64,000 bases of DNA from Bacillota bacterium (GTDB lineage: Bacteria; Bacillota; Sulfobacillia; JAJYWN01; JAJZPE01), in contig JAJYMC010000054.1 in the NCBI GenBank assembly GCA_021787335.1, forward strand, positions 26,572 through 90,571, in the 5' to 3' direction. Both the position numbers and the translations under genes were made by a program. Each line of letters opens with the position of its first letter. Positions within the stretch are counted from its first letter, which is position 1. This document shows positions 20,664 through 42,531 of this stretch, in pieces. The notes under the pieces are model-generated. The model worked only from the letters and a program-made list of their open reading frames with translations, was not told the DNA's origin and searched no databases.

Positions 20664-21503
20664 TTATCGGCTACGTACGACCCGCCCTCCCAGCTCGCGC
20701 TCGGCCACGAGGCACAGGCTCTCGTACCGGGCCCGGTCGAACGCCGGCAGCCGGGCGAGTTCCGTCTTGACCCCGTTCGGCCGGAAGGGGATGAGCCGGA
20801 GGCGGGTGCGCCCGTCAAGCCCCTTCACCAGCCTGGCGATGGCGGTTATCTCCGCCTCGTCGTCGGTAAAGCCTTCGACGATGACCGTGCGGACCTCGTG
20901 GAGGTGCCCCTCCCGCGAGGTCCGGGCGATGTTCTCGAGGATCACCCGGTTGTCGGCCCCCGTCAGCTGGGTGTGCTTGTCCGCGTCGAGGGCCTTGAGG
21001 TCGAACATGAAGCCGTCGGTCACCGGCAGGAGGGTCTCAAGGGCCTCCTGGCTCATCTGGCCGTTGGTGTCGATGAAGGTGGTCAGGGACGTGTCCGCCT
21101 TGACCCGTCGGAAGAGTTCGGCCACGAACTCGTGCTGCAGGGTGCACTCCCCGCCGGAGACGGTCACGCCGTCGAGGAAGTCTTGGAGCTCCAGCAGCCG
21201 CGCGTGGACCTCGTTGACGTCGACCAGCCGGTACTTGGGCGAAGAGAAGTGCGGGCAGACTTTGAGACAGGTGTCGCAGCTGCGGCAACGCCCCGGGTCA
21301 TGGACGACGCGGCCGTCGACCAGGCTCAGGGCCCCGGCCGGGCAGGTGGCCACGCACTCGCCGCAGTCGACGCACACCCGCTGGGTCTCCGGGTTATGGC
21401 AATAGTTGCAGGCCAGGTTGCAGCCTTGCAGAAAGACCACAAGGCGGTTGCCCGGCCCGTCGATCAGGGAATGCTCGATTATCCTATTGACCGTCGCCTT
21501 CAC
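20664..21503 (-). CDS. yjjW: glycyl-radical enzyme activating protein (YjjW-like, extra 4Fe-4S clusters)
   Basis: GPGNRLVVFLQGCNLACNYCHNPE radical-SAM site plus two ferredoxin-like Cys clusters. The track ORF extends to 21578. The probable start is GTG at 21503, giving a short overlap with the upstream gene. Confidence 0.75.
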   Translation of the reverse strand: MKATVNRIIEHSLIDGPGNRLVVFLQGCNLACNYCHNPETQRVCVDCGECVATCPAGALSLVDGRVVHDPGRCRSCDTCLKVCPHFSSPKYRLVDVNEVHARLLELQDFLDGVTVSGGECTLQHEFVAELFRRVKADTSLTTFIDTNGQMSQEALETLLPVTDGFMFDLKALDADKHTQLTGADNRVILENIARTSREGHLHEVRTVIVEGFTDDEAEITAIARLVKGLDGRTRLRLIPFRPNGVKTELARLPAFDRARYESLCLVAERELGGRVVRSR

Positions 21504-22998
21504 GGACAGCCCTGACCCTTCTCTCCAGGGTCCGGTTGTTCTTGATGCTGTCGGCGCCGAGCTTGACGGTGCCCTCACGGACCGGCTCCCCGCGGAAGTA
21601 ACGGTCGACCTCGCACCGCTTGACGAGGTAGCCGGTGATGCGGATGAGCTCTGAGTCGGAGGTGTTCAGGGCCATGATCCGCATCCCGTTCTTCATCGCC
21701 CCCCGGACGATGCGGAGCACCCCGTCGGGGTTGTCGCGGGCGTTGGCCTCGAAGATGTAGATGTCATTGACTCCCGTATCAAAGTGGCGTTGCAGCGCGC
21801 TCTGCAGCCTGATCTGGTCGTAGAGGGCGGGCTCGTCGCCGATGCGGGAGCGGACGCCGGCCGTGACATCGACGTCGGTGTCGATGCCCGATTGGGCGTG
21901 CACGCCGAGCAGGCCGCCAAAGACCTTGCCGTAAGCCGTCTTGTGCATCTTGACGAGGTCGTGAGCCCGGCCCATGATGGCCAGGGCCATCTCGTCGGCC
22001 CCCTTGTCGTGGCCCATCCGGCGCCCGCCGGAAAAGGCCTGGACCCCTTCATAGAGCCCGAAGAAGCCGGCCATGGCGGTGAACTTGCGCCGGTCGATCA
22101 GGCCCTCCTGGGCCAGGAAGGACGACTCGAAGAAGCCGGCCTCTTCAACAATGAAGCGGATGCGGGCGTTGATCAGCTCGGCCTGAGCGTCGACGACCTC
22201 GGGGAGCACGTCGGCCATGAACTGATCGTAGTCCCGCGCCCCGCGGGCGGCTTCCTTGAGGTTCAGCCGGACCAGGGTGAAGCTGCCGCCCCCGATCTTC
22301 AGGGAGTTGTAGCAGCTGGCGATGCCGTAGTCGTCGCCGCCGAAGACGCGGCGGAGTTCCGCATGGTTGACGAAGTAGGGCTTGGAGGTGTCGAGGGCCG
22401 TGGTCACGGCCAACCGGGCGAATTCAGGCGGCGTCTCTTCGCTGAATTTCAGGGACAGGTTGGGCACGGCCTTTTTCAGTTCGCCCTCCAGTTTGAGGAC
22501 GAGCCGGCCGACGGCGGTCGCCCGGGGGCCGATGTTCATGTGGACGAAGGCGTCCGGCAACGTCCGGTCGATGTTCACCAGGAACATCCGGAGCAACCGC
22601 TCGGCCTCGGCCGGGCTGACCGTGTCGATGAAACCTTCGAGGACGTCGTCGATCTGGCCGAGGTAGACCGGGTAGCCGGTGACTGAGGGGACATTCCGGT
22701 AGAGGATGAGCAGCGCGTTGACCGCCTCGTAGAGGTCGCGGGGGGCGGGCAGGTCCAGGTGCCGGCTGCCCTGGCGGATGAACTTGACGTAATCCGGTAG
22801 GATGTAGCGCGGGCGATAGGGCGCGTGCCCCTCGCCGAGGTCGTGGAGCACCCCACTGTCCATCAGTTCCTGGACGCGCCGGCCGACCTGCAGGTAGGGC
22901 AACGAGTTCTCGGCGGCCGCGGCCAGTTCGTGCCGCTTCTGAGGGTATGTCAGGCGACGGTCTTTGACCAGTTCGATGACCTTGTCCACCCAAGCCAC
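21484..22998 (-). CDS. yjjI: YjjI-family (DUF3029) putative glycyl radical enzyme
   Basis: 504 aa with a C-terminal glycyl-radical-like motif RITGY. Located immediately upstream of its activase. Confidence 0.65.
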   Translation of the reverse strand: MAWVDKVIELVKDRRLTYPQKRHELAAAAENSLPYLQVGRRVQELMDSGVLHDLGEGHAPYRPRYILPDYVKFIRQGSRHLDLPAPRDLYEAVNALLILYRNVPSVTGYPVYLGQIDDVLEGFIDTVSPAEAERLLRMFLVNIDRTLPDAFVHMNIGPRATAVGRLVLKLEGELKKAVPNLSLKFSEETPPEFARLAVTTALDTSKPYFVNHAELRRVFGGDDYGIASCYNSLKIGGGSFTLVRLNLKEAARGARDYDQFMADVLPEVVDAQAELINARIRFIVEEAGFFESSFLAQEGLIDRRKFTAMAGFFGLYEGVQAFSGGRRMGHDKGADEMALAIMGRAHDLVKMHKTAYGKVFGGLLGVHAQSGIDTDVDVTAGVRSRIGDEPALYDQIRLQSALQRHFDTGVNDIYIFEANARDNPDGVLRIVRGAMKNGMRIMALNTSDSELIRITGYLVKRCEVDRYFRGEPVREGTVKLGADSIKNNRTLERRVRAVREGDGQ

Positions 22999-27478: not shown

Positions 27479-27488
27479 GATTTCTCTG

Positions 27489-27560
27489 AGCCGGCGATGG
27501 GACTTGAACCCGCAACCTGCTGATTACGATTCAGCTGCTCTACCATTGAGCTACGCCGGC
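27489..27560 (-). tRNA. tRNA-Thr (anticodon CGT)
   Basis: Manual cloverleaf: GCCGGCG acceptor stem, GCTGA/TCAGC anticodon stem with loop ATCGTAA, TTCAAGT T-loop. CCA is not encoded. Confidence 0.8.
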
Positions 27561-28207: not shown

Positions 28208-28244
28208 ATAGAAAACGAATCGCCGACCGGTTGACCGGTCGGCG
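28208..28244 (-). terminator. intrinsic terminator downstream of tRNA-Gly
   Basis: Perfect CGCCGACCGG/CCGGTCGGCG stem with loop TTGA, followed by ATTCGTTTTCTAT on the minus strand. Confidence 0.55.
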
Positions 28245-28247
28245 CTG

Positions 28248-28319
28248 AGCGGGAGACGGGATTCGAACCCGCGGCCTTCGGCTTGGGAAGCCAACGTTCT
28301 ACCACTAAACTACTCCCGC
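28248..28319 (-). tRNA. tRNA-Gly (anticodon CCC)
   Basis: GCGGGAG acceptor stem, anticodon loop TTCCCAA, GGTTCGAATCC T-arm. A downstream hairpin plus T-tract lies at 28208-28244. Confidence 0.8.
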
Positions 28320-28336
28320 GATGTCTGCAAGGCTTA

Positions 28337-29512
28337 TTATAACCGATACGTTTGGGCGATGCAAGTTCCGCCCATCGCCGCCAAATGCCCATCTTGGGCT
28401 TCAATGCGCCCTTTCTTTGACCGCTCAGCCCTGTTTTGCAGGTCAAGCAGCTTTAGCAGCGGCCGCGCGCCCGAGCCCGGCCGGACGGCTGAGAACTGAT
28501 GGTTGCGCCGTTCGGCCGAGGTCCAGCGGTATTTGTAGTCTTCGGCCCCACGGAGGAAGTCGAAGAGCCGGAGACCCTCCGCGATGGCCCGCTGGATGGA
28601 GTGGGCGACCACGAGGCTGCCCACCCCGGCCCAGGACCAGGCCGGATCGAAGCCGCCGGAGTAGTAGAAGGTCCCGGCCGAGGTCCGGAAGCTGTACTGG
28701 CTGGCCACGCATTCGCCGTTGGCATAGGCCAGGTAGAGGCGCAGGCGGCCCTCGTCGAGGAACCGGCGGGCGACGTCGAGGTGGAACCGCCGCACGGATG
28801 GCAAGGCGAAACTGCCGGGCATCCCCCGCCGCTGCCACCGCCGCTGGTGAAGGCGGAACATCTCAGCCATTGCCGCAGGCAGGGCGGCCGGATCCTCGAC
28901 CAGCCGGATCTCGAACTGGCTCTCCTTCTCGATCCGGCGGCGGTAGTAATCGAGGTGCTTGCGGGTCTTCTTGCCGAGCGTCGCACGCAGTTCCTCCCAG
29001 GTCCCGGGGAGCTCGAGGTACGGGCAGACCTCCTGCGGCAATAGAACCGACGGCCAACCGGCGGCCGCGGCCGCGCTCCGGAAGGCGGCCAGGGCCGGAG
29101 AGTCGCCGGGCACTTCTTCGAGGGTCAGGAGTTGCCAGGCGCGCCCGTGGGCGGCCAGAAAGGCGACGAGAGCCTTGGCCAAGTCCTCTTCCTTCCCCCG
29201 GGTGAGGATCAGGTCGAGGTAATCGCTGTTGCCGGCGCCCATCAGGCGGAGCCGCCGGACCGGCACCCCGGGGACGAGCCACTCACGATAGAACGGGGCC
29301 AGACCGGTTAGCCGGCCTTCCCCGTCCCGTAGAGTCACGATGAACAGCCGTTTGCCCGCGCGGTGGTGGTCCCACCAGCACGAGGCCCAGGTCCAGGTGG
29401 AAAAAGGGCGGTTCTCCGAGCTGCGCTCGAGGAGCTCGTCCCATTCATGGCGTAACGCCTTCAGGTCCGCCTCGTCGGCCGCCACGGAGACCGTATACTC
29501 AGCGTCTGACAC
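28337..29512 (-). CDS. BioF2-like / FemAB-superfamily GNAT acetyltransferase (CelD-like)
   Basis: 391 aa with the characteristic C-terminal GNAT/Fem-like fold (YLAYANGECVASQYSFRTSAGTFYYSGGFDPAW). Confidence 0.55.
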   Translation of the reverse strand: MSDAEYTVSVAADEADLKALRHEWDELLERSSENRPFSTWTWASCWWDHHRAGKRLFIVTLRDGEGRLTGLAPFYREWLVPGVPVRRLRLMGAGNSDYLDLILTRGKEEDLAKALVAFLAAHGRAWQLLTLEEVPGDSPALAAFRSAAAAAGWPSVLLPQEVCPYLELPGTWEELRATLGKKTRKHLDYYRRRIEKESQFEIRLVEDPAALPAAMAEMFRLHQRRWQRRGMPGSFALPSVRRFHLDVARRFLDEGRLRLYLAYANGECVASQYSFRTSAGTFYYSGGFDPAWSWAGVGSLVVAHSIQRAIAEGLRLFDFLRGAEDYKYRWTSAERRNHQFSAVRPGSGARPLLKLLDLQNRAERSKKGRIEAQDGHLAAMGGTCIAQTYRL

Positions 29513-30116
29513 GGCGGATAGTCCACCACCAAGCGCCCCCGATGACGACGACGGCCAGGGTGATGACCCAGGCCAGGTGGGGCTTGATCAGATTGATGAC
29601 GACTTCATAGTGCCCGCTGAAGGCATAAAACAGCCAGAGCCAACCGGCCGTCCAGGTCGCCTCGGCGATGAGCTGGTAGAGGACGTAGGCGTCGAGCCGC
29701 ATCTTGCCAAGCCCGGCGGCGATGATGGCCGGCGTCCGGATGATGCCGAACCAGCGGGCGGCGACCATGGTGGCCCCGCCATAGCGAGCAAAGTAGCCTT
29801 GGACTTTGGTCAGTTCCTTGTCGGTGACGCCGAGCCGCCGGCCATAACGGTCGACGACGGCGCGCCCCCCGCGGTACCCCACCCAATAGCCGCCGAGGTT
29901 GCCCAGAGTCTCGCCGATCGTGGCGATGACCCAGACCACGGGGAAGCTCATCTTCCCTTGGACCATCAGAAGCCCGGCCACGATAAAGTGGATCTCGATG
30001 GGAATCGGGAGACCCGTGCCCTCAAGGACAGTGGCGGCGAAGATACCGCCGTAGCCGTATTTGACGGCCCAGCCGTAGAAGATGCCGGCCCATCCGCCCA
30101 GGGCTCCAATGTCCAT
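29499..30116 (-). CDS. DedA family membrane protein
   Basis: 205 aa with the DedA/SNARE-associated signature (FIVAGLL...GNLGGYWVGYRGGR). Confidence 0.8.
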   Translation of the reverse strand: MDIGALGGWAGIFYGWAVKYGYGGIFAATVLEGTGLPIPIEIHFIVAGLLMVQGKMSFPVVWVIATIGETLGNLGGYWVGYRGGRAVVDRYGRRLGVTDKELTKVQGYFARYGGATMVAARWFGIIRTPAIIAAGLGKMRLDAYVLYQLIAEATWTAGWLWLFYAFSGHYEVVINLIKPHLAWVITLAVVVIGGAWWWTIRRVRR

Positions 30117-30168: not shown

Positions 30169-31452
30169 TCAGAAAGCCTCGGTCAGGGCCAGGGTCTGGG
30201 TCCGCTCGCGGCCGACTGAGACGAGGCCGATCTTCGTCTTGGTGAGGTCCTCGACAAGTGACAGATAAGCCCGGGCCGCCTGCGGGAGTTGGTCAAAGGA
30301 GGTGAGGCGGTCGAGGTCGGCCGGCCAGCCCTCGAGTTCCTCGTAGACCGGCTGGCACTGGGCCAGGTCGTCAAGGGAGGCCGGGAATTCGGCCACCTTC
30401 TGGTCTCCCTTTCGGTAGTGGGTGCAGACCTTGACCTTGTCGATCCCGCCGAGGGTGTCCAGGCGAGTGACGGCGAGCAGCCCGATGCCGCTGGTCCGGA
30501 CGGCGTAGCGGACGATGACCAGGTCGAGCCAGCCGCACCGGCGCGGCCGCCCGGTGGTGGTCCCGTATTCAGCGCCTCGTTGGCGGATCCACTCCCCGGT
30601 CTCGTCGAGGAGTTCGGTCGGGAAGGGCCCATCGCCGACGCGCGTCGTGTAGGACTTCATGACCCCGACGACACGGCCGATCCTGGTCGGCCCGATACCG
30701 GCCCCGATGCAGGCTCCCCCGGCGATTGGGTGAGATGACGTCACGTAAGGGTATGTGCCCAGGTCGATGTCGAGAAGCGTGCCCTGGGCGCCTTCGAAGA
30801 GCACCTTCCGGCCTTCGTCGATGGCCTGGTTGATGACCAGCGACGTGTCGGCCACGAAGGGCCGGATCCGCTCGTAGACCCGCTCGACCTCGCCGATGAT
30901 CTCGTCGACGGTGAACCCCGGCTGGCCGTAGACGCGCTCCAATAGCCGGTTCTTCTCATCCAGGGCCATGGCCAGCTTGGCCCGGAAGGACGCCCGGTCG
31001 GCCAGGTCGCAGACGCGGAGCCCGATGCGCGCGGTCTTGTCGGCGTAGGCGGGGCCGATGCCGCGGCGGGTGGTGCCGATGCGGTTCTTCCCTTTGCGCT
31101 CTTCGTCGACCTCGTCGAGACGGCGGTGATACGGCAACAACAGGTGGGCGCGGTCGCTGATCTTGAGGTTGAAGCTCCTGACGCCTTGCTCCTTCAGGTA
31201 GTTCAACTCGTGGTCGAGGACCTCGAGGTCGAGGACGACTCCGTTGCCGATGACGCAGACCTTCTCGGGATAGAAGATGCCCGAGGGGATGAGATGAAGC
31301 TTGTACTCACGCCCCTTGACCACGACGGTGTGCCCCGCGTTGTTGCCTCCCTGGTAGCGGACCACCATATCGACCTTCTCGGCCAGATAGTCGGTGATCT
31401 TTCCCTTGCCTTCGTCGCCCCACTGGGCGCCAACGATGACGGTCGCCGGCAA
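30169..31452 (-). CDS. purA: adenylosuccinate synthetase
   Basis: 427 aa with [10 protein letters not shown]-loop and GGNNAGHTV. Full-length PurA. Confidence 0.95.
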
Positions 31453-31455
31453 CGG

Positions 31456-32865
31456 TCATTCCTCCCCGGTGATGCCTTCTCGTCTGAGGATTTCCTGGGC
31501 CACATGGACGCCGGAGGCTGAAGCCTGGACCAACCCGCGGGTGACCCCGGCCCCGTCCCCGGCGGCGAAGAGATTGTGGATCTTCGTCTCGAGGGCGTTG
31601 GACAGCTCCAGCCGTTGCGAATAGAACTTGACCTCCACCCCGTACAGGAGGGTGTGGCGGGAGTATACACCGGGGAGGATCTTGTCCATCGCCTGGAGCA
31701 TCTCGAGGATGCTGGTCAGGTGGCGATATGGCAGGACCAGGCTGAGGTCCCCCGGGGTGGCATCCTTGAGGGTTGGCTCGACCATGCCTCGTTGCAGGCG
31801 CTTCTGGGTCGAGCGCCGGCCGGCCAGGAGGTCCCCGAGGCGCTGGACGAGGACGCCGCCGCCGAGCATATTGGCCAGGGTGGCGATGTCCTTGCCGTAG
31901 GCCAGGGGCTCTTTGAACGGCTCGGTGAACGTCTTGCTGACCAGGAGGGCGAAGTTCGTGTTGTCGGTGCGCTTGTCGAGATAGCTGTGGCCGTTGACGG
32001 TGAGCAGGCCGCCGCTGTTCTCGATGACCACTTCACCGTACGGGTTGACGCAGAAGGTCCGCACCTGGTCGTCGAAGGACTTGGAGTAGTAGATGAGCTT
32101 GGCCTCGTATAGCTCGCGGGTGAAGGCTTCGAGGACGACGGCCGGAAGCTCGACGCGGACGCCGATGTCGACCGGGTTGTTGGCCAGGGGCAGGTTCAGT
32201 TTCTTGGCCTGGCCGGCGAACCACTCGGCGCCCTCCCGCCCGGGGACGACGACGACATAGTGGCTCTTGACCTCCTGCCCGCGGGTGAGCCGGACGCCCG
32301 TGACCCGGTCATCCCGGCTGATGAGTTCCTCCGCCTGCACGTGGGTCCGAACCTCGACGCGGGACTCCAGGTGCCCGCGCATGGCGGTGAGGACCTCAAG
32401 GCATCGGTCGGTGCCGAGATGGCGGACGTGGGTCGAGACCAGAGACAGGTCGGCCGTGGCCGCCTGGCGCTGGAGTTCGCGGAAGATTTCGTTGTTGGTG
32501 CCGTAGACCGTCTCAGGAGCGCCGTACTTCAGGTAGACCTGGTCGACGTAGCTGATCAGCTTGACCAGAGCCGAGCGGCCGATGTACTGCTCGAGCCAGC
32601 CGCCGACGGCCGGGGTCAGGGTCAACTTCCCGTCGCTGTAAGCGCCGGCGCCTCCCCACCCCGAAAGGATGAGGCACGGCTTGCACCGCGTGCACCCGGT
32701 GGTCTTGACCTGCATCGGGCAGTGACGCTTGGCGATGTCCGGCCCTTTCTCGACGATGAGGACTTTCAGCTGGGGGGCCTTGTCGGCCAGTTCGAGAGCG
32801 GTGAAGATGCCGGCGGGCCCGGCACCGACGATGACGACGTCGTATGTCTCTTTGCCTTCGGGCAT
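31456..32865 (-). CDS. FAD-dependent dehydrogenase (COG2509-like NAD(FAD)-utilising family)
   Basis: 469 aa with VVIVGAGPAGIFTALEL dinucleotide-binding motif. AGGAGG RBS. 3-nt gap to purA. Confidence 0.75.
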   Translation of the reverse strand: MPEGKETYDVVIVGAGPAGIFTALELADKAPQLKVLIVEKGPDIAKRHCPMQVKTTGCTRCKPCLILSGWGGAGAYSDGKLTLTPAVGGWLEQYIGRSALVKLISYVDQVYLKYGAPETVYGTNNEIFRELQRQAATADLSLVSTHVRHLGTDRCLEVLTAMRGHLESRVEVRTHVQAEELISRDDRVTGVRLTRGQEVKSHYVVVVPGREGAEWFAGQAKKLNLPLANNPVDIGVRVELPAVVLEAFTRELYEAKLIYYSKSFDDQVRTFCVNPYGEVVIENSGGLLTVNGHSYLDKRTDNTNFALLVSKTFTEPFKEPLAYGKDIATLANMLGGGVLVQRLGDLLAGRRSTQKRLQRGMVEPTLKDATPGDLSLVLPYRHLTSILEMLQAMDKILPGVYSRHTLLYGVEVKFYSQRLELSNALETKIHNLFAAGDGAGVTRGLVQASASGVHVAQEILRREGITGEE

Positions 32866-32901
32866 CTGCCTGCCTCCTGTCTGGACTAGTCTTGCACTTT
32901 G

Positions 32902-32945
32902 GCGCAGAAAAACAACCGGCCGTCTGGGGCCCCCCGGTCGGCCGG
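32902..32945 (-). terminator. leader intrinsic terminator (candidate attenuator) upstream of FAD-dehydrogenase/purA
   Basis: GC-rich hairpin CCGGCCG...CGGCCGG followed by TTGTTTTTCTGCGCC on the minus strand. Located between the promoter and the AGGAGG RBS. Confidence 0.5.
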
Positions 32946-32978
32946 CAATGTTCTGTTCTCAGTGGAGGCCCGCCTCTT

Positions 32979-33026
32979 ATCATACCAGGGGTTGGTCGAT
33001 TGGTCAACGTCTAACCGAACGTTCTA
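32979..33026 (-). promoter_or_regulatory. promoter (TTGACC-17-TATGAT) with adjacent PurBox-like CCGAAC/GAACGTTC palindrome, for the FAD-dehydrogenase-purA operon
   Basis: Minus-strand -35 at 33002-33007 and -10 at 32979-32984. The palindrome GAACGTTC, containing CCGAAC, lies at 33014-33025. Confidence 0.45.
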
Positions 33027-33140
33027 CGGCGTCGGCTCTTTAATGTTCGTCCATCGGGACTGCGGCTGTGGCAGCCGGGTCTTCTCCTCCGTATGATGTG
33101 AGGCGGGTATGCCCGTCAATCATGGGAGGGAAGTGCCCCA

Positions 33141-34256
33141 ATGAGTCAGTCCGCATCACTGTCGTCCAGCCCCGAATTGCAGGCCGCGTTGCGGCGGGCT
33201 GGTCCGGGTCAGGTTATCGGACTCGACGGCCTGGACACGAACGCTGGTCGGCGGTTGAACCTGGTGGTCAACGACGGCGGCCAATCCCTGCTCTTCTCGA
33301 ACGACCCCGAGAGCATCACTCAACCCAACCGCGTCCTTGCCCGGGAGCCGAGCTTGCCCCAGGGGGAGAACCGCGTCTTCTTCCATCATCAGAACGGGAC
33401 CCACCGCCCGCAACGGGTGGCCCTGGTGGCCCGCGGCGGTCCCGGCGGTTCCTGGGTGGCGGTGCGTCGAAGTGGTGTGGGCGGCCCGTGGAGCGACCCG
33501 CTCGTCGTCGGTCGGCGGGCCTTCTATCGTTGGTTGTCCGACAACCAGTACTATCCGGCCGTGCGTCTGGCTGAGGGCGAGGTCACGATACTAGATCCGT
33601 CCCTGGCCACGCTGACGGTCGACCAGGGGCAGACCATCGGGGGCATCATCGACATCGGCGTCTTCCCGGGAACCCCGGTCGAAGTGGCCGTCGTGGCCTG
33701 TGACCCGGAGGTGCCTATGGAGAAGGCTTACCCGTCGCTCTTGGCCCACCCGCGCAGCGGCAACGAGTTCGTCCGGGGAACCGCGAAGGCCTGTGACCGC
33801 CTGCTCGATATGGCCAATGACGGCATTCATGACGCGGCCTACGACACGTCCTGGGGGGTGGCCTACTATCGGGCCGGCGACGGCGTCGTCGACCCATTCT
33901 TGGCGGTGGCCGACAGGCTGACGCCTTCCGGAGACCCACAGCCGTTGGCCGGCAACTTCGGACTGCTCTATCGTTTCCATCTCTGGCTGACCGGGAGCGA
34001 CGGCCAGGCCGTGGCCTTGCTCGTCAACCCGTGCGGGACCGACTATGGTGGCGCCATCAAGGTGGCCCCCGGCCTTGACGGGGGCGGCGACGTCTACCTG
34101 CCCTGGTCCCCCGACTCGATCCGCGACCCATTCCAGGCCGTGCTGGCCGGGCGGTATCTGCCGCGAGCCGGCGTGAGCCTGTGGTTCCAGTTCATGATTC
34201 CGGGCGGCTCAAACGCCCCCATCAATCTGGTCTTGGTCCCGTACCACCCGGCCTGA
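33141..34256 (+). CDS. hypothetical protein (orphan, no recognisable domain)
   Basis: 371 aa with no signal peptide or TM helices. GGGAGGG RBS. The only plus-strand gene for about 20 kb. Confidence 0.5.
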   Translation: MSQSASLSSSPELQAALRRAGPGQVIGLDGLDTNAGRRLNLVVNDGGQSLLFSNDPESITQPNRVLAREPSLPQGENRVFFHHQNGTHRPQRVALVARGGPGGSWVAVRRSGVGGPWSDPLVVGRRAFYRWLSDNQYYPAVRLAEGEVTILDPSLATLTVDQGQTIGGIIDIGVFPGTPVEVAVVACDPEVPMEKAYPSLLAHPRSGNEFVRGTAKACDRLLDMANDGIHDAAYDTSWGVAYYRAGDGVVDPFLAVADRLTPSGDPQPLAGNFGLLYRFHLWLTGSDGQAVALLVNPCGTDYGGAIKVAPGLDGGGDVYLPWSPDSIRDPFQAVLAGRYLPRAGVSLWFQFMIPGGSNAPINLVLVPYHPA

Positions 34257-37329: not shown

Positions 37330-38667
37330 TCAGGCCGGCTTGCGGAACTTCTCGGGGTCGGCGAAACGCCCGATTTCCTTCATGAAGACCAGTTCGACCG
37401 AACCGGTCGGGCCGTTCCGCTGCTTGGCGACGATGATCTCGGCGACGTTCTTCTTCTCCGTATCGGGCTTGTAGTACTCCTCGCGGAAGATGAAGGCCAC
37501 CAGGTCGGCGTCCTGCTCGATGGCGCCGGACTCACGGAGGTCGGAGAGCATCGGCTTCTTGTCATCACGTTGCTCGACGGCCCGGCTGAGCTGCGAGCCG
37601 ATGATCACCGGGACCTTCAGTTCACGGGCCAGCGCTTTCAGCGACCGGGAGATCTCCGAGATCTCCTGTTGGCGGTTCTCCACCCGTCCCCGCGTCCGCA
37701 TGAGCTGGATGTAGTCGACGACGATGAGCCCGAGGTCATGCTCGGCCTTGATCCGGCGCGCTTTGGCCCTGAGCTCCATGACCGAGATCGAAGGGGTGTC
37801 GTCGATGAAGACCGGGGCGTCGCTCAGCCGACCCAGGGCGTGCGACAACCGAGGCCAGTCGGCATCCATCAGGTGGCCGGTACGCAGCCGCTGGCCGTCA
37901 ACGCCGGCTTCGGCGCAAAGAAGGCGCTGGGCCAGTTGTTCTTTGGACATCTCCAGGCTGAAAATGGCGACCGGGACCGACTTGGACAGCGCGGCGTTCC
38001 GAGCCATGTTCAGGAGCAGGGTGGTCTTGCCCATCGACGGGCGGGCGGCGATGACGATGAGGTCCGACGGCTGGAGACCCGAGGTCAGGGCGTCCAGACC
38101 CTTGAACCCCGTGGGCACGCCGGTGACCCCTTCCTTGTTGCTGTACAGGAACTCGATCCGTTCGAAGGCGTCCAGGAGGACGCCCCTGATGGCCGCGTAG
38201 CCTTCGGTCGACCGCCGCTGAGCGATCTCGAAGATGCGCCGCTCGGAGTCGTCGATCAATACGGCGACTTCCTCAGCGCCCTGATAACCCTTGGCGACGA
38301 TGTCCGTCGCCACCGTGATGAGCTCGCGAAGAAGGGCCTTCTCCTCGACGATGCGCGCATAGTACTCGGCGTTGGCCGCCGTGGGGACGGCGTTGGCGAG
38401 GGCCGTCAGATAGGCCACGCCGCCGATGTTCTCCAGGAGCCCCCGCTTCCTCAGCTCGTCGGTAACGGTGACGAGGTCGACGGCCTCCCCATGTTCGTGA
38501 AGGTTGACCACCGCCTGGAAGACCTCGCGGTTGGCCTCGCGGTAGAAGTCCTCCTGGTGGAGGATGTCGGCCGCCTTGATGAGCGCCTCGCGCTCGATGA
38601 GCATCGAACCGAGGACCGCCTGCTCGGCTTCGAGGTTCTGCGGCGGGACCCTCTCGAGGATGCTCAT
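37330..38667 (-). CDS. dnaB: replicative DNA helicase
   Basis: 445 aa. N-terminal PPQNLEAEQAVLGSML, Walker A GARPSMGKTT, RecA-like C-terminus. Confidence 0.95.
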   Translation of the reverse strand: MSILERVPPQNLEAEQAVLGSMLIEREALIKAADILHQEDFYREANREVFQAVVNLHEHGEAVDLVTVTDELRKRGLLENIGGVAYLTALANAVPTAANAEYYARIVEEKALLRELITVATDIVAKGYQGAEEVAVLIDDSERRIFEIAQRRSTEGYAAIRGVLLDAFERIEFLYSNKEGVTGVPTGFKGLDALTSGLQPSDLIVIAARPSMGKTTLLLNMARNAALSKSVPVAIFSLEMSKEQLAQRLLCAEAGVDGQRLRTGHLMDADWPRLSHALGRLSDAPVFIDDTPSISVMELRAKARRIKAEHDLGLIVVDYIQLMRTRGRVENRQQEISEISRSLKALARELKVPVIIGSQLSRAVEQRDDKKPMLSDLRESGAIEQDADLVAFIFREEYYKPDTEKKNVAEIIVAKQRNGPTGSVELVFMKEIGRFADPEKFRKPA

Positions 38668-38684
38668 GAGACTCCCCCCCTTGC

Positions 38685-40703
38685 CTACGAAGCGGACTTG
38701 CCGGTCGTGGTCGCGTTCCCGGCCAGCGCTAGCTGAAGGGCTTCTTCGGCGGTCTCGACCGCGATGACCTCGATGCCCTTGATGTCCACCGGGATGTCTT
38801 TGACGTTCTCCCTGGGAAGGATGATGCTCTTCATCCCGGCCTGCTTGGCGCCGTAGATCTTCTCGAACACGCCGCCGATGGCCCGGATGCGCCCCTGGAT
38901 GGAGAGTTCCCCGGTGATGGCCACATCCTGGCGGATGGGCACGCCCTCCATGGAGCTGTAGATGGCCAGGAAGATGGCCAGCCCGGCCGAGGGACCGTCG
39001 ATGTTGCCCCCGCCGATGGCGTTGACATGGAGGTCGAAGTCGGCCACTTCTTTGCCGGTCAGGCGCCTGATGACGGAGGCCGCGTTGAACACGGAATCCT
39101 TGGCCATCGACCCGGCGGTCTCGTTGAACCGGAAGGTCCCCTTGCCGGGGTCCCGCGCCGGGTAGACCATGGCCTCGACTTCGATGACCGAACCGAGGTA
39201 GCCATAGACGCCGAGTCCGAAGGCCTTCCCGATTTCCGGCCGGTCGCTGGCCTTCTGAGGGCTGTTCGGGAGCATCCGGCCGACCTGGATGACCTGCAGG
39301 ATGTGGTCGCGGGAGAGCCGGACGCGACTCGCACCGCGTTGCGGCTGGCCGTGGGGCGCCACTTCACGGCCCTCGGCCGTCGCGGCCACCTCGCGGCTGG
39401 CGTGGTGGGCGTTCTGGTAGAGCGCCAGCCCGTAGGCGTCGGCCAGGATGCCGATGGCCTTACGGCCTTCGATGGTGTACTCGCTGATGATATCGGGGAT
39501 GGCCCGGTCCAACCGGACCTTCAGTTTGCCCGCGGCGTTCTTGACGATGAGCTTGATGTCGCCCGGCCCGAGGGGATCGAAGAAGACTTCGGCGCAGCGG
39601 GAACGGATGGCCGGGCTGATGTCGGACGGGTCCCGGGTCGTCGCCCCGATGAGGACGAAGTCGGCCGGAGCGCCCTCTTCGAAGAGTTTCCTGACGTACT
39701 TGGGGACGTTCGGGTCATCGGGGTCGTAGTAGGACGAATCGAAACTGACCCGCTTGTCCTCGAGGACCTTCAGGAGCTTGGCCAGGAGCATCGGCTCGAG
39801 TTCACCGATCTCGTCGATGAAGAGGATGCCCCCGTGGGCCTCGGTGACCAGACCCAGCTTGGGCTCGGGGACACCGCCCTCGGCCAGCTCCCGTCGGGCC
39901 CCCTGGTAGATGGGATCGTGAACGGACCCGAGGAGGGGGTTGGTGACCTCCCTGGGATCCCAGCGCAGAGTGGTCCCATCGACTTCGATGAATGGCGCGT
40001 CCTTGGCGAAGGGGGAATGCTTGAGTCGCTTGGCCTCCTCCAGACAGAGGCGGGCGACGGTGGTCTTGCCGACGCCGGGCGGTCCGTAGAGGATGACATG
40101 CTGCGGGTAGGGCGAGGAGATCTTGGCCAAGAGGGCCTTGATCGCCCGGTCCTGCCCGACCACCTCGCCGAGGGTGGCCGGACGGATGACGTCGATGGCC
40201 GAGCGGGACAGCTGCTTATGCTCCAGCTTCTCGAGGATGGCGTACTTCTTGAGGGTCTGCGCGTTCTCAGGACCGCCGTCTTCCTTGGCGATCTGCATCT
40301 TGATGTCCCGGATGTACTCCTCGTGACGTTGCTGCATGCGCTCGGCGATCTTCCGCTCGACCTTGTCCTCGACGGTCTTCCGGGCGATGATGTCGGCGAT
40401 CTCGTCCTCGATGCCGTCGAGCACCGATGACACGTCGCTCAGATTGGGCGGCCCTTCTATGGTCGGGTCTTCATACACTACCTTCTGGAGCGCCAGGACC
40501 TGCTGCCCGAGGTCGTCCGAGCGCATGCCTTCCAACGCTTCGAGCTTGCCCGCCCGAAGGACCAGCTTGTCCGCCCCGTAGATGTCTGACAGCAGCCCGA
40601 AAAGGGCGCTGACCTGACGGCGCAGCATGTCCTCCTCGCTGAGCTTGCCTTCCACGCCGGCCCGGGGATTGCTCCGGACCAACCTGTCAAGAAACGGCTT
40701 CAA
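38685..40703 (-). CDS. Lon-like ATP-dependent protease, sporulation LonC/LonB type (AAA+ plus S16 domain)
   Basis: 672 aa. Walker A GPPGVGKTT. S16 catalytic region DGPSAG...EKIYGAK. Confidence 0.85.
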   Translation of the reverse strand: MKPFLDRLVRSNPRAGVEGKLSEEDMLRRQVSALFGLLSDIYGADKLVLRAGKLEALEGMRSDDLGQQVLALQKVVYEDPTIEGPPNLSDVSSVLDGIEDEIADIIARKTVEDKVERKIAERMQQRHEEYIRDIKMQIAKEDGGPENAQTLKKYAILEKLEHKQLSRSAIDVIRPATLGEVVGQDRAIKALLAKISSPYPQHVILYGPPGVGKTTVARLCLEEAKRLKHSPFAKDAPFIEVDGTTLRWDPREVTNPLLGSVHDPIYQGARRELAEGGVPEPKLGLVTEAHGGILFIDEIGELEPMLLAKLLKVLEDKRVSFDSSYYDPDDPNVPKYVRKLFEEGAPADFVLIGATTRDPSDISPAIRSRCAEVFFDPLGPGDIKLIVKNAAGKLKVRLDRAIPDIISEYTIEGRKAIGILADAYGLALYQNAHHASREVAATAEGREVAPHGQPQRGASRVRLSRDHILQVIQVGRMLPNSPQKASDRPEIGKAFGLGVYGYLGSVIEVEAMVYPARDPGKGTFRFNETAGSMAKDSVFNAASVIRRLTGKEVADFDLHVNAIGGGNIDGPSAGLAIFLAIYSSMEGVPIRQDVAITGELSIQGRIRAIGGVFEKIYGAKQAGMKSIILPRENVKDIPVDIKGIEVIAVETAEEALQLALAGNATTTGKSAS

Positions 40704-40778
40704 GCGATACCCTCCCCGGCGCTCCCCCTCGGAGCGCCACCCCTGACCGCTTGGCGCGGTCCAGCCGATTCGGGTCCC

Positions 40779-41237
40779 TCAAACGGCCCGGTCTTCCGGT
40801 TCGACGACGATCTTGATCACCGCGCCGACCTTTGGATGTAGCTTTATCTGCACTTCATGAGCGCCAAGGGTCTTGATGGCGTCCTCGAGGACCACCTTGC
40901 GCCGGTCGACCTCGACGTGGGCCGCCTTCTGCACCCTTTCGGCGATGTCCTTGCTGGTGATGGAGCCGAACAGCCGCCCGCCTTCCCCGGCCTTGGCCCG
41001 GATGATCACGGTCAGGCCCTTGAGCTTGGCGGCAGCCTCCTCGGCGGCGGCCAACTCATGGTCGGCGCGGGTCTCGATGCGCTTCTTCTCGTTCTCGAAG
41101 TGGCGGACGGCGCCGCCCGCGGCCTCCACGGCCAGTCCCCTGGGCAACAGGTAGTTGCGGGCGTAACCTTCCGCGACGTTGACGGTTTCACCCTTTCGGC
41201 CCAATGTCTTCACGTCTTTGGTCAGGATGACCTGCAC
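40779..41237 (-). CDS. rplI: 50S ribosomal protein L9
   Basis: 152 aa, beginning MQVILTKDVKTLGRKGETVNVAEGYARNYLLPRGLA. Confidence 0.95.
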   Translation of the reverse strand: MQVILTKDVKTLGRKGETVNVAEGYARNYLLPRGLAVEAAGGAVRHFENEKKRIETRADHELAAAEEAAAKLKGLTVIIRAKAGEGGRLFGSITSKDIAERVQKAAHVEVDRRKVVLEDAIKTLGAHEVQIKLHPKVGAVIKIVVEPEDRAV

Positions 41238-41270
41238 GGCGGATTCCTCCAGTCGCTTTCCCGGTCCGGC

Positions 41271-42191
41271 TCAGTTGGCGGGCTTGGCCCGCAGTCGCCG
41301 GTAGTCGAAAAGGTAGTCGAAGATCCCGAACCACATGGCCAGTCTCGCCGTGACCATGTTGATCATGAGGAGCAGCACAAGAACGACCCTGAGCACCGGC
41401 GGCACCTTGACCGCGGTCAGGAAGAAGTAAGCGACGGCCAACCCCTCGATGATGAAGGCGATGGTGCACAAGGAGTACAGGTTGCTGGCGACCGGCACGA
41501 ACCGAGCGAGTTGCGGGAACCGGCCGGCCCCGCTGAGGACGATCAGGCCGACCGCCCACACCAGCAGGATCGGCATGAGCGGCAACTGCCACCGGGCGAA
41601 CGGCGGGAATCGGGGAACCGTGATGCCGACCCGCGGCAGCACCCAGCCGGCGGCCAGGTAGACGATGAGGGCCATGAACAGGGCCGAGCCGATAAGCATG
41701 GCCAGAACGTACTTGTGGGCCCAGTCGGTGGCCACGGAGGTCTGTCGCTGGAGCAGGTCGATCTGGTCCGGGGTGAGCCGGGCGCCGTTGACTCGAATGA
41801 ACTCCTTGATGGCCTCGGTCAAGGACGCCCCCGCTTGGGCCACACTATCCTCACCCATGATGAGCAGTGTTCCGGCCCAGGTGGCGACCGCACCCACGGT
41901 GGTGGCAGCCGCCGTGATGGCGTAGGACGCCAGGGCCCCCAGCTTGCGGCGGACCGCGAAGCCATAGCTCAAGGCCATCAGCCACAGGCCACCACCGATG
42001 AGAAGCCCGTTGGCGAGCCCCATGAAGGCGATGGTCAGAAGGGCCGTGGCGACCACCGCCACGAGGGTGATCCGCAGGCCGTGCCTGACCTGCAGGATGA
42101 TGAGGGGAATGGGGACGAAGAACAAGGTCACCAGGCCGATGATCGGGGCGTAGACACTGAAAAGGGTGATGGCGACGGTAAGCGCTGCCAT
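41271..42191 (-). CDS. YybS-like (DUF2232) polytopic membrane protein
   Basis: Polytopic membrane protein in the conserved yybS-rplI-dnaB neighbourhood. The track ORF extends to 42506 with a non-membrane low-complexity N-terminus. The likely start is ATG at 42191. Confidence 0.5.
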   Translation of the reverse strand: MAALTVAITLFSVYAPIIGLVTLFFVPIPLIILQVRHGLRITLVAVVATALLTIAFMGLANGLLIGGGLWLMALSYGFAVRRKLGALASYAITAAATTVGAVATWAGTLLIMGEDSVAQAGASLTEAIKEFIRVNGARLTPDQIDLLQRQTSVATDWAHKYVLAMLIGSALFMALIVYLAAGWVLPRVGITVPRFPPFARWQLPLMPILLVWAVGLIVLSGAGRFPQLARFVPVASNLYSLCTIAFIIEGLAVAYFFLTAVKVPPVLRVVLVLLLMINMVTARLAMWFGIFDYLFDYRRLRAKPAN

Positions 42192-42436
42192 CAACGCGCC
42201 TTCGATGAGGGGCCTGGTCCTAGAGTCACTGGCCAACTGGTTTCGGTCTCCTTGCTGGACGCGCTTAAAATGGCCCTTAAGCAGGCCTTGGGGTCGCGCA
42301 TACCGGGGATAGCATACCCGGAAGGGGTCAAAAAACGGCTCGGGAGGCCCTTTTGAGCATGCCACCGGCCGTGTCTGATATGAATTCGCCGCCCCCGCTG
42401 GTTCTCCTTTTGTCGAAGACTGTTCCAGCGGCTCGT

Positions 42437-42475
42437 AAAAACAGGAAAAGGCGAGACGGACTGTCCCGTCTCGCC
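42437..42475 (-). terminator. intrinsic terminator downstream of motB
   Basis: Perfect 10-bp stem GGCGAGACGG/CCGTCTCGCC followed by TTTTCCTGTTTTT on the minus strand. Confidence 0.65.
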
Positions 42476-42531
42476 GCGTTCGTCGTGGCCGTCCGGCGGC
42501 CCTCATAAGCCGGCCGCCGAGTCCATCTATC

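What the first reader, a model, noticed from the sequence alone, without database searches (positions are those of the whole stretch)
32902..33026. Leader with intrinsic terminator and PurBox-like palindrome upstream of an FAD-dehydrogenase-purA operon
A good promoter (TTGACC-17-TATGAT, minus strand) is followed within about 50 nt by a strong GC hairpin and TTGTTTTTCT, a T-run that is rare in this roughly 70% GC sequence. Only then come the AGGAGG RBS and the start of the FAD-dependent dehydrogenase, which is followed 3 nt later by purA. A terminator inside a leader implies attenuation or antitermination control. Immediately upstream of the -35 lies GAACGTTC, which contains CCGAAC, the half-site of the Firmicute PurR PurBox. 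The 110-nt leader is too short for the known purine riboswitches, so the mechanism may be protein- or small-RNA-mediated.
Basis: partly seen in the sequence, partly recalled or inferred. Interest (0 to 1): 0.55.

Follow-up and report, generated by a model that had tools for sequence, protein, structure and literature searches.

The report
PurR-controlled purA promoter with leader terminator
This is the control region of an adenine-nucleotide synthesis operon in an uncultured high-GC Bacillota bacterium: an ordinary purine-repressor (PurR) binding site and promoter, followed by a conserved transcription stop signal in the leader whose trigger is unknown.

Summary
On the minus strand there is a promoter (TTGACC-17-TGgTATGAT), then a -21 kcal/mol GC hairpin with TTGTTTTTCT, then AGGAGG and ATG of a 469-aa FAD-dependent protein. 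purA follows 3 nt later.

The "GAACGTTC palindrome" is not the functional unit. The conserved element is a canonical Bacillus-type PurR operator: two inverted 14-bp PurBoxes (CGAAC-N24-GTTCG, 33054-33011) with a 16-bp spacer, ending 3 nt before the -35. In four relatives (83-93% protein identity) the box cores, spacing, promoter, hairpin and T-run are kept. The spacer and the hairpin loop drift, and the palindrome is lost in two of the relatives.

No Rfam family matches the leader, and I found no conserved antiterminator fold or leader peptide. Analogous promoter-proximal terminators precede FAD-purA operons in other Bacillota classes (6/15 loci versus 5/65 FAD loci without purA).

Best reading: PurR repression, which is well supported, plus a genuine leader terminator acting as an attenuator. 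Its read-through is probably set by a trans-acting factor or by nucleotide pools rather than a riboswitch; this last step is inferred and unproven.

The PurR part is already known. The aptamer-less purA leader terminator is a modestly novel variant.

The parts
33041..33054 (-). PurBox 1 (ATGGACGAACATTA; core CGAAC at 33049-33045)
   Evidence: Read directly. It is part of the only CGAAC-N24/25-GTTCG match in the 64 kb (0.24 expected). GAAC is invariant in five clade sequences.
33025..33040 (-). 16-bp spacer between the two PurBoxes
   Evidence: Its length is invariant and gap-free in five sequences, but only 1 of 16 positions is invariant. This matches the 16-17 bp spacer reported for B. subtilis (PMC8789054).
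33011..33024 (-). PurBox 2, inverted (GAACGTTCGGTTAG; core GTTCG at 33020-33016).
   Evidence: GTTCGG is invariant in five sequences, and 8 of 14 positions are invariant. The box ends 3 nt before the -35. The same GTTCGG-N7-TTGAC geometry occurs in L118 and L102.
33002..33007 (-). -35 hexamer TTGACC
   Evidence: Found by the promoter scan. TTGAC is invariant in relatives.
32979..32987 (-). Extended -10, TGgTATGAT
   Evidence: Found by the promoter scan, with a 17-nt spacer and TG present. TG.TAT.AT is conserved in relatives.
32964..32973 (-). Predicted transcription start (G at 32973-32971) and 5'-terminal GGGCCUCC box
   Evidence: The start is inferred from the 6-8 nt distance to the -10. GG at 32971-32970 is invariant. 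The box can pair with the SD or with the G-run in the hairpin loop. That pairing is not better than shuffles in most relatives.
32947..32960 (-). A-rich tract GAGAACAGAACATT, 5' of the hairpin
   Evidence: Nearly invariant in 4 of 5 clade sequences. It pairs with the U-tract in the MFE and consensus folds. It is unique in the window.
32915..32946 (-). Terminator hairpin GCCGGCCG-(16-nt loop)-CGGCCGGU
   Evidence: dG is -18 to -24 kcal/mol in all five relatives, with z from -2.4 to -3.4. 95% of cells are paired, and two pairs change on both sides. The loop sequence is variable.
32906..32914 (-). U-tract TGTTTTTCT
   Evidence: GTTGTTTT is invariant in relatives. It contains one of only 10 T>=5 runs on this strand.
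32873..32878 (-). Shine-Dalgarno AGGAGG, 7 nt before the ATG at 32865
   Evidence: GGAGG is conserved in relatives.
31456..32865 (-). FAD-dependent protein (COG2509-like; PF21688 C-terminal domain), 469 aa
   Evidence: Pfam hits. Homologues at 55-93% identity are widespread.
30169..31452 (-). purA, adenylosuccinate synthase, 427 aa, TTG start 3 nt after the FAD stop
   Evidence: PF00709 at 612 bits and NF002223 at 620 bits. The gene junction is read.
28221..30116 (-). Probable remainder of the transcription unit: DedA/VTT gene (29499-30116), FemAB-like GNAT gene (28337-29512), tRNA-Gly(CCC) (28247-28319) and an end terminator (28244-28221)
   Evidence: Gene calls and Pfam hits. tRNA. Terminator. 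The tRNA may have its own promoter.
33068..34256 (+). Divergent promoter (GTGGCA-18-TATGAT, 33068-33097) and a 371-aa gene of unknown function (33141-34256). They share the PurBox region with the purA promoter.
   Evidence: Promoter scan. The -10 is conserved in relatives that carry the gene. The gene has no Pfam or NCBIfam match. It is absent in L086, which keeps the PurBox-promoter-leader module.

Best explanation
This is a two-layer control region for an FAD-protein-purA operon.

Layer 1, well supported. A Bacillus-type PurR repressor binds two inverted PurBoxes (33054-33011) that abut the -35 of a strong sigma-A-type promoter. By analogy with B. subtilis, it blocks initiation when PRPP is low or (p)ppGpp is high, and lets go when PRPP rises. 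Because the boxes sit between two divergent promoters, PurR may also affect the 371-aa gene.

Layer 2, partly inferred. Transcripts start at about 32972. Within about 65 nt they meet a canonical intrinsic terminator: an A-tract, an 8-bp GC stem and UUGUUUUU. This stops a fraction of them as an RNA of about 65-70 nt, before the ribosome-binding site.

The leader has no room for, and no trace of, a known aptamer, a conserved antiterminator fold or a leader peptide. So the fraction that reads through is most likely set in one of two ways. One is a trans-acting factor that binds the conserved A-rich tract or stem base. The other is kinetic: nucleotide pools or NusA/NusG acting at the U-tract. A riboswitch is unlikely.

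What is shown and what is inferred:
- Shown: the sequence elements, their exact geometry, their conservation, and the absence of known RNA families.
- Inferred: PurR occupancy, actual termination, and any conditionality of read-through.
For: PurR layer:
- CGAAC-N24-GTTCG is the only such site in 64 kb (0.24 expected). It lies 3 nt from the -35.
- B. subtilis PurBoxes are 14-bp AT-rich boxes with a central CGAA/TTCG, in inverted orientation, separated by 16-17 bp, just upstream of the -35. purA is the strongest PurR ChIP peak there (PMC8789054).
- In five clade sequences the region from box 1 to the -10 aligns without gaps. Invariant positions are 5/14 (box 1) and 8/14 (box 2) against 1/16 in the spacer.
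- The same N24 geometry precedes the orthologous operon in low-GC Bacillota L003, L005 and L008. N25 is found in L124.
- The PurBox-promoter-leader module stays with FAD-purA in L086, where the upstream neighbour differs.

Terminator layer:
- dG is -18 to -24 kcal/mol in all five relatives.
- The stem and U-tract are invariant or change compensatorily, while the loop drifts.
- It is as strong as the gene-end terminators of the same window.
- The reverse strand gives only a poor T-tail, read directly.
- Promoter-proximal hairpin+T-runs recur upstream of FAD-purA in Desulfotomaculia-like, Moorella, Negativicutes and other high-GC loci (L003, L006, L007, L009-11, L014, L016, L118, L124). The count is 6/15 purA-linked loci against 5/65 unlinked FAD loci (Fisher p = 0.004).
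- Loci lacking PurBoxes tend to have the terminator, and the reverse also holds.

Against a riboswitch:
- No Rfam hit at E<=10 in the window leader, or at E<=5 in ten related leaders.
Against: - No purR gene is in the window or in any fetched locus, so the repressor's presence in this organism is unverified.
- Box flanks are less AT-rich than in Bacillus. Box 1 reads ACGAAC rather than CCGAAC, and is TGAAC in L086.
- Only five or six distinct clade sequences exist. The covariation support for the hairpin is therefore weak (40/500 shuffles reach it).
- No alternative structure that would make termination conditional is conserved. The terminator could simply be constitutive.
- The closest GTDB relatives (L001, L004) and L091, L120 and L122 have no such leader. 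There the FAD gene directly follows an upstream gene.
- The enrichment test ignores phylogenetic non-independence and GC differences.
Confidence: 0.5

Rival explanations
1. PurR is the only regulator. The leader hairpin+U-tract is a constitutive, partially efficient terminator. It acts as a fixed damper on a strong promoter and produces a functionless short RNA, with no conditional read-through.
For: No conserved antiterminator, aptamer or leader peptide. The hairpin loop is variable, as in ordinary terminators. PurR alone is reported for B. subtilis purA (PMC8789054).
Against: A strong unconditional terminator in front of a biosynthetic gene is costly. The architecture also recurs in distant Bacillota lineages, including ones with no PurBoxes, where it would be the only recognisable control element. 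The 13-nt A-rich tract is more conserved than simple U-tract pairing requires.
Confidence: 0.28
2. The hairpin does not terminate transcription in vivo. It is a 5'-UTR structural element that stabilises the mRNA, or part of a translational switch in which the 5'-terminal CUCC box masks the Shine-Dalgarno sequence.
For: The MFE of the full leader pairs GCCUCC (about 32968-32963) with GGAGGC at the SD, enclosing the hairpin. The CUCC box and GG at the predicted +1 are conserved.
Against: The box:SD duplex is no better than shuffled boxes in 4 of 5 sequences, and is absent from the MFE of L086 and L089. The invariant U-tract directly after the stem has no role in this model. T-runs are rare in this genome.
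Confidence: 0.1
3. An undescribed small riboswitch or pseudoknot. The 5' box pairs with the G-rich apical loop of the terminator (GGGCCUCC with GGGGGCCC), and a metabolite stabilises one state.
For: Truncated transcripts of the window, L084 and L086 fold this way. The duplex beats shuffles in the window (0.3%) and in L084 (1.3%). There is one apparent C-G to U-A exchange between the window and L084, though with a 1-nt register shift (my reading of the alignment).
Against: It is not significant in L083, L086 or L089. G-rich and C-rich runs pair easily at 65% GC. The pairing does not touch the basal stem that drives termination. No Rfam similarity. Distant leaders share no aptamer-like conserved core.
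Confidence: 0.07
4. The promoter-to-terminator unit is primarily a PurR-controlled small RNA gene of about 65-70 nt with C-rich seed motifs acting in trans. purA expression is a by-product of read-through.
For: It is a discrete promoter+terminator unit. C-rich motifs (CCUCC, GCCCC) resemble the anti-SD seeds of Firmicute sRNAs (from general knowledge, not tested).
Against: No second promoter can be found between the terminator and the SD, so the operon depends on read-through (my reading; the scan reports none there). There is no Rfam sRNA match. The motifs are not well conserved in L089.
Confidence: 0.05

Closest known systems
Bacillus subtilis PurR operator (PurBox pair) at purA and the pur operon
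   Same: Two inverted boxes with a CGAA/TTCG core, a 16-bp spacer, and a position immediately upstream of the -35. The target gene is purA, the strongest PurR ChIP site in B. subtilis (PMC8789054).
   Different: The flanks are GC-richer. The operon begins with a COG2509-type FAD protein. The operator sits between two divergent promoters. The repressor gene was not seen, and the organism is an uncultured high-GC Bacillota bacterium.
B. subtilis pur operon and xpt-pbuX dual control (PurR at the promoter plus a guanine-riboswitch terminator in the leader)
   Same: The logic is the same: a PurR operator at the promoter followed by an intrinsic terminator in the 5' leader of a purine gene.
   Different: There is no purine aptamer (RF00167) or any other Rfam family. 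Only about 25 nt lie between the predicted start and the hairpin. The gene is purA, which is not known to have a leader attenuator (my knowledge; nothing found).
B. subtilis pyrG attenuator (CTP-sensitive reiterative transcription; recalled from memory, Meng, Turnbough and Switzer 2004)
   Same: It is an aptamer-less leader terminator whose read-through depends on the first transcribed nucleotides. Here too the transcript probably starts with a G-run (GGG/GGC).
   Different: The third and fourth transcribed nucleotides vary (GGGC, GGGU, GGCU). The terminator 5' arm is not a pyrimidine tract that poly-G could sequester. The gene belongs to the purine pathway.
Protein-mediated attenuation in Bacillota (PyrR, TRAP, LicT/SacY-type RAT, HutP)
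   Same: A conserved single-stranded tract directly 5' of, and overlapping, a leader terminator (GAGAACAGAACAUUG) is where such proteins act.
   Different: There is no match to the PyrR element or other Rfam leader models. There are no GAG/UAG repeat arrays, and no candidate RNA-binding protein was identified.

Membership tests
Bacillus-type PurR operator (PurBox pair) | Two boxes with a central CGAA and, inverted, TTCG | tested here: met
   CGAAC at 33049-33045 and GTTCG at 33020-33016. The cores are invariant in five relatives.
Bacillus-type PurR operator (PurBox pair) | 14-bp boxes separated by 16-17 bp | tested here: met
   N24 between the 5-nt cores equals a 16-bp spacer between 14-bp boxes. 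The spacing is gap-free in five relatives. The criterion comes from PMC8789054.
Bacillus-type PurR operator (PurBox pair) | AT-rich sequence flanking the cores | tested here: inconclusive
   Box 1 has ATTAAAG on its 3' side. Box 2 has TAGAAC and GTTAG. Both are richer in A/T than the 65% GC background, but much less so than Bacillus boxes.
Bacillus-type PurR operator (PurBox pair) | Located at or just upstream of the -35 of a purine-metabolism promoter | tested here: met
   Box 2 ends 3 nt before TTGACC, and the operon contains purA.
Bacillus-type PurR operator (PurBox pair) | The genome encodes PurR (PuR_N winged helix plus PRT domain) | not testable with these tools
   tblastn with a recalled B. 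subtilis PurR sequence finds nothing in the window or in 127 fetched loci. The rest of the genome is not available.
Bacillus-type PurR operator (PurBox pair) | Binding relieved by PRPP and enhanced by (p)ppGpp | not testable with these tools
   This needs EMSA or footprinting.
Intrinsic (Rho-independent) terminator used as a leader attenuator | Stable GC-rich hairpin immediately followed by a U-tract on the transcribed strand | tested here: met
   -21 to -24 kcal/mol, followed by UUGUUUUUCU. Conserved in five relatives.
Intrinsic (Rho-independent) terminator used as a leader attenuator | Lies between the transcription start and the start codon | tested here: met
   It lies between the conserved promoter and the SD/ATG. 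The start site itself is predicted, not measured.
Intrinsic (Rho-independent) terminator used as a leader attenuator | A mutually exclusive antiterminator structure or other conditional mechanism | tested here: not met
   No conserved alternative pairing that sequesters the basal stem. No leader ORF.
Intrinsic (Rho-independent) terminator used as a leader attenuator | Condition-dependent ratio of terminated to full-length RNA | not testable with these tools
   This needs Term-seq, a northern blot or in-vitro transcription.
Purine riboswitch (RF00167) and other described riboswitches or leaders | Match to the family covariance model | tested here: not met
   cmscan of 32500-33500 at E<=10 gives only chance-level hits, none of them to a riboswitch or leader family or on the leader strand. 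Ten related leaders are also negative at E<=5. Twenty loci scanned at gathering score gave only tRNA and SRP RNA.
pyrG-type reiterative-transcription attenuator | Invariant initially transcribed G-run followed by the sensed nucleotide, and a complementary pyrimidine tract in the terminator 5' arm | tested here: not met
   Only GG is invariant, and positions 3-4 vary. The 5' arm GCCGGCCG is not a pyrimidine tract.

The most novel reading that the evidence does not exclude
The hairpin+U-tract could belong to an undescribed, aptamer-less attenuator that controls COG2509-purA operons across several Bacillota classes. It might be read out by an unknown RNA-binding protein that recognises the conserved A-rich or stem-base sequence, or directly by nucleotide pools at the U-tract. 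In lineages without PurBoxes it would substitute for PurR.
Probability: 0.22. Interest if true: 0.6.

Novelty: new variant of a known kind. Interest (0 to 1): 0.38.

Why it matters
The PurR part only extends a textbook Bacillus regulon to an uncultured high-GC Bacillota lineage.

Two things go beyond that.
- purA, which is thought to be controlled by PurR alone, here carries a strong, conserved leader terminator with no recognisable sensor. Similar terminators recur in distant Bacillota. If read-through is conditional, this points to an unrecognised way of tuning the AMP branch of purine synthesis.
- The uncharacterised COG2509/PF21688 FAD protein is repeatedly placed behind PurBoxes and co-transcribed with purA. 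That gives a testable lead to a purine-related function for a widespread protein family of unknown role.

Tried and rejected
- Known RNA families: Rfam scans of the window leader, of 20 related loci at gathering score and of 10 related leaders at E<=5. Nothing was found in any leader.
- Antiterminator or anti-SD switch involving the 5'-terminal CUCC box: the duplex energies are not better than shuffles in most relatives.
- Leader peptide: no in-frame conserved start codon.
- More clade sequences: a metagenome scan with the PurBox2-promoter pattern returned 26 loci, but only two were clade members, both identical to L086.
- Shared sequence motif among distant FAD-purA leaders: alignment and 8-mer analysis found only T-runs. 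MFE folds show no common architecture.
- Resemblance of GUCCAGACAGGAGGC to the PyrR binding motif: rejected. It is mostly the SD itself, it is not conserved in L084, and there is no Rfam PyrR hit.
- ZTP-like CCGCCUGGGC in the hairpin: rejected, no Rfam hit.
- Second promoter downstream of the terminator: none is credible.
- Inverted repeat linking the two divergent promoters (GTATGATnnGAGGCGGG): not conserved in L083, so treated as coincidence.
- purR gene in the window or fetched loci: not found.
- Literature on a purA leader attenuator: nothing found in the searchable library. Rappu et al. 1999 is not held.

Full report
**What is in the sequence**

Read on the minus strand, the 275-nt intergenic region 33140-32866 lies between a divergent 371-aa gene of unknown function (plus strand, 33141-34256) and a 469-aa FAD-dependent protein gene (32865-31456). 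The FAD protein matches PF07992 and PF21688.

purA follows the FAD gene (31452-30169). It scores 620 bits against NF002223. Its TTG start lies 3 nt after the FAD stop, behind its own GGGGAGGAA ribosome-binding site. A DedA/VTT gene and a FemAB-like GNAT gene come next on the same strand. After them come tRNA-Gly(CCC) and a strong terminator.

- -35 TTGACC at 33007-33002.
- A 17-nt spacer.
- TG-extended -10 TATGAT at 32984-32979.
- It matches 10 of 12 consensus positions.

The hairpin is GCCGGCCG-N16-CGGCCGGU (32946-32915), followed by TGTTTTTCT (32914-32906).
- It folds at -24.1 kcal/mol with its flanks (z = -2.4).
- It is among the strongest hairpin+T-run features on that strand of the window.
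- That strand has only ten T>=5 runs in 64 kb.

The SD AGGAGG (32878-32873) and the ATG (32865) follow. Window GC is 65.5%, not about 70%.

**The PurBox**

The real unit is larger and extends beyond the given coordinates: CGAAC (33049-33045), then 24 nt, then GTTCG (33020-33016).
- This is the only CGAAC-N24/25-GTTCG site in the window. Shuffles give 0.24 expected.
- Written as 14-bp boxes it is ATGGACGAACATTA, a 16-bp spacer, and GAACGTTCGGTTAG. It ends 3 nt before the -35.
- Anderson et al. (PMC8789054) describe B. subtilis PurR sites in these same terms: 14-bp AT-rich boxes, a central CGAA or inverted TTCG, a 16-17 bp spacer, and a position just upstream of the -35.
- purA is the strongest PurR ChIP peak in B. 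subtilis and carries PurBoxes.

**Comparative evidence for the operator**

The window contig is a metagenome assembly (ENA ERZ27236928). Its closest species representative in GTDB is a Bacillota MAG at 71% protein identity.

Protein search and contig look-ups gave four further distinct relatives at 83-93% identity: L083, L084/85, L086-88 and L089/90.

Their upstream regions align with the window without a single gap from box 1 to the -10. Invariant positions per element:

| Element | Invariant positions |
|---|---|
| PurBox 1 | 5 of 14 |
| Spacer | 1 of 16 |
| PurBox 2 | 8 of 14 |
| -35 | 5 of 6 |
| -10 | 5 of 6 |

The GAACGTTC palindrome is not conserved. It is AATCGTTC in L084 and GAATGTTC in L089. 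It is therefore a by-product of box 2.

The same CGAAC-N24-RTTCG geometry precedes the orthologous FAD-purA operon in low-GC Bacillota (L003, L005, L008). An N25 version is in L124.

In L086 the divergent 371-aa gene is absent and the upstream neighbour is co-directional with its own terminator. The PurBox-promoter-leader module is still intact there. It therefore belongs to the FAD-purA operon.

The missing piece is the repressor gene. It is not in the window or in any fetched locus.

**The leader terminator**

- In all five clade sequences the hairpin folds at -18 to -24 kcal/mol, with z from -2.4 to -3.4.
- The stem base and GTTGTTTT are invariant.
- One stem pair runs G-C, G-U and A-U across the sequences, and another flips G-C to C-G.
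- The 16-nt loop drifts.
- With only six rows the covariation statistics are weak. 40 of 500 shuffles reach the observed score.
- A 13-nt A-rich tract (GAGAACAGAACAUU) directly 5' of the stem is nearly invariant in four of five sequences. It pairs with the U-tract in the folds.
- On the opposite strand the tail after the hairpin is T-poor, so the element is directional.

**Is termination conditional?**

I looked for the usual devices. None was found.
- No Rfam family matches the leader strand even at E<=10.
- Only about 25 nt separate the predicted start (invariant GG at 32971-32970) from the hairpin.
- The 5'-terminal GGGCCUCC can pair with the SD, or with the G-run in the hairpin loop. These duplexes beat shuffled controls only in the window and L084, and are absent in L089.
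- No leader ORF with a conserved start exists.
- No second promoter lies between the terminator and the SD.

The structure that is robustly conserved is therefore simply a strong terminator.

**Wider context**

Among 80 genome loci carrying the FAD gene, 15 have purA directly downstream, nearly all of them labelled Bacillota.
- A hairpin+T-run within 100 nt of the start codon occurs in 6 of these 15, against 5 of the 65 others. Fisher p = 0.004, not corrected for phylogeny.
- By eye there are weaker examples in L003, L006 and L007. There are further ones in L118 and L124, which are high-GC at 66-69% protein identity.
- In these loci a good promoter lies upstream of the hairpin. Where the upstream gene is dnaB, it has its own separate terminator (L007, L011). 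These are therefore leader features.
- Loci with PurBoxes but short leaders (L002, L005, L008) lack the terminator.
- PurBox-less loci (L006, L007, L009-11, L014, L016) have it.
- The window clade, L003, L118 and L124 have both.
- The distant leaders share no sequence motif beyond the T-run, no common fold and no Rfam match.

This argues against one conserved aptamer. It is compatible with a trans-acting factor, kinetic control, or independent recruitment of terminators.

**Conclusion**

The PurR operator and promoter are an ordinary, well-supported member of a known regulon type. I put about 0.8 on PurR-type repression.

The leader element is very likely a functional intrinsic terminator (about 0.65). 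Whether read-through is regulated, and how, is unresolved (about 0.35-0.4 that it is).

My committed model is PurR repression plus attenuation read out by a trans factor or by nucleotide pools. The main rival is a constitutive damper.

The library I could search describes no purA leader attenuator. The arrangement is therefore a modest new variant of the PurR-plus-leader-terminator logic known from the B. subtilis pur operon. It differs in lacking the riboswitch.

Noticed in passing
L002, L003, L005, L008 (about 100-165 nt upstream of the FAD start); L102; L126:1300-1360: The uncharacterised COG2509/PF21688 FAD-dependent protein gene sits behind PurBox pairs or a PurBox2 half-site abutting the -35 in many Bacillota. 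This includes Tepidanaerobacter acetatoxydans Re1, where purA is not downstream. The family may belong to the PurR regulon and have a purine-related function.
   Followed up: partly
L010:2905-2925, L011:2900-2925, L014:1395-1415 (approximate): An identical 20-mer, TTTGGGTTATTTTTATGCCG, is shared by three genomes whose leaders are otherwise diverged. It covers the terminator 3' arm, the U-tract and ATG CCG. The ATG opens a 5-21 codon upstream ORF that overlaps the FAD start in two of them. L009 and L016 have GAGG-U7-AUG/GUG at the same place.
   Followed up: no
L118:1390-1440: A PurBox-like pair, GGAAC-N25-GTTCG, lies inside the transcribed leader of a 69%-identical FAD-purA operon. This is in addition to a GTTCGG half-site 7 nt upstream of its -35, and a terminator 10 nt before the SD.
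   Followed up: no
L124:1270-1400: The 235-nt leader of another FAD-purA operon contains a direct repeat, GATTAGRCTCAAGRTAGRAARCAG (two copies about 90 nt apart). It recalls the CTCAAA stem base conserved in the Desulfotomaculia-type leader terminators.
   Followed up: no
window 33141-34256 (+): A 371-aa soluble protein with no Pfam or NCBIfam match is transcribed divergently from the same PurBox-containing intergenic region. It is conserved in L083, L084 and L089 and absent in L086.
   Followed up: partly
window 32969-32985 and 33091-33107: The two divergent promoters share a 17-nt inverted repeat, GTATGATnnGAGGCGGG, covering the -10 and the first transcribed bases. It is not conserved in L083, so it is probably coincidental.
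   Followed up: partly
window 37330-42506 (-): Conserved Bacillota origin-proximal synteny: DUF2232 (yybS-like), rplI, a Lon-like AAA protease and dnaB. In this clade a MerR-GNAT gene, a methyltransferase, an FMN reductase and the 371-aa gene are inserted between dnaB and FAD-purA.
   Followed up: partly
window 27488-27560 and 28247-28319 (-): tRNA-Thr(CGT) and tRNA-Gly(CCC) lie directly downstream of the purA operon, each followed by a strong terminator. tRNA genes also follow purA in L003, L004, L008-L011.
   Followed up: no
window 21484-22998 (-): A YjjI-like glycyl radical enzyme (PF11230, 617 bits), which suggests an anaerobic lifestyle.
   Followed up: no
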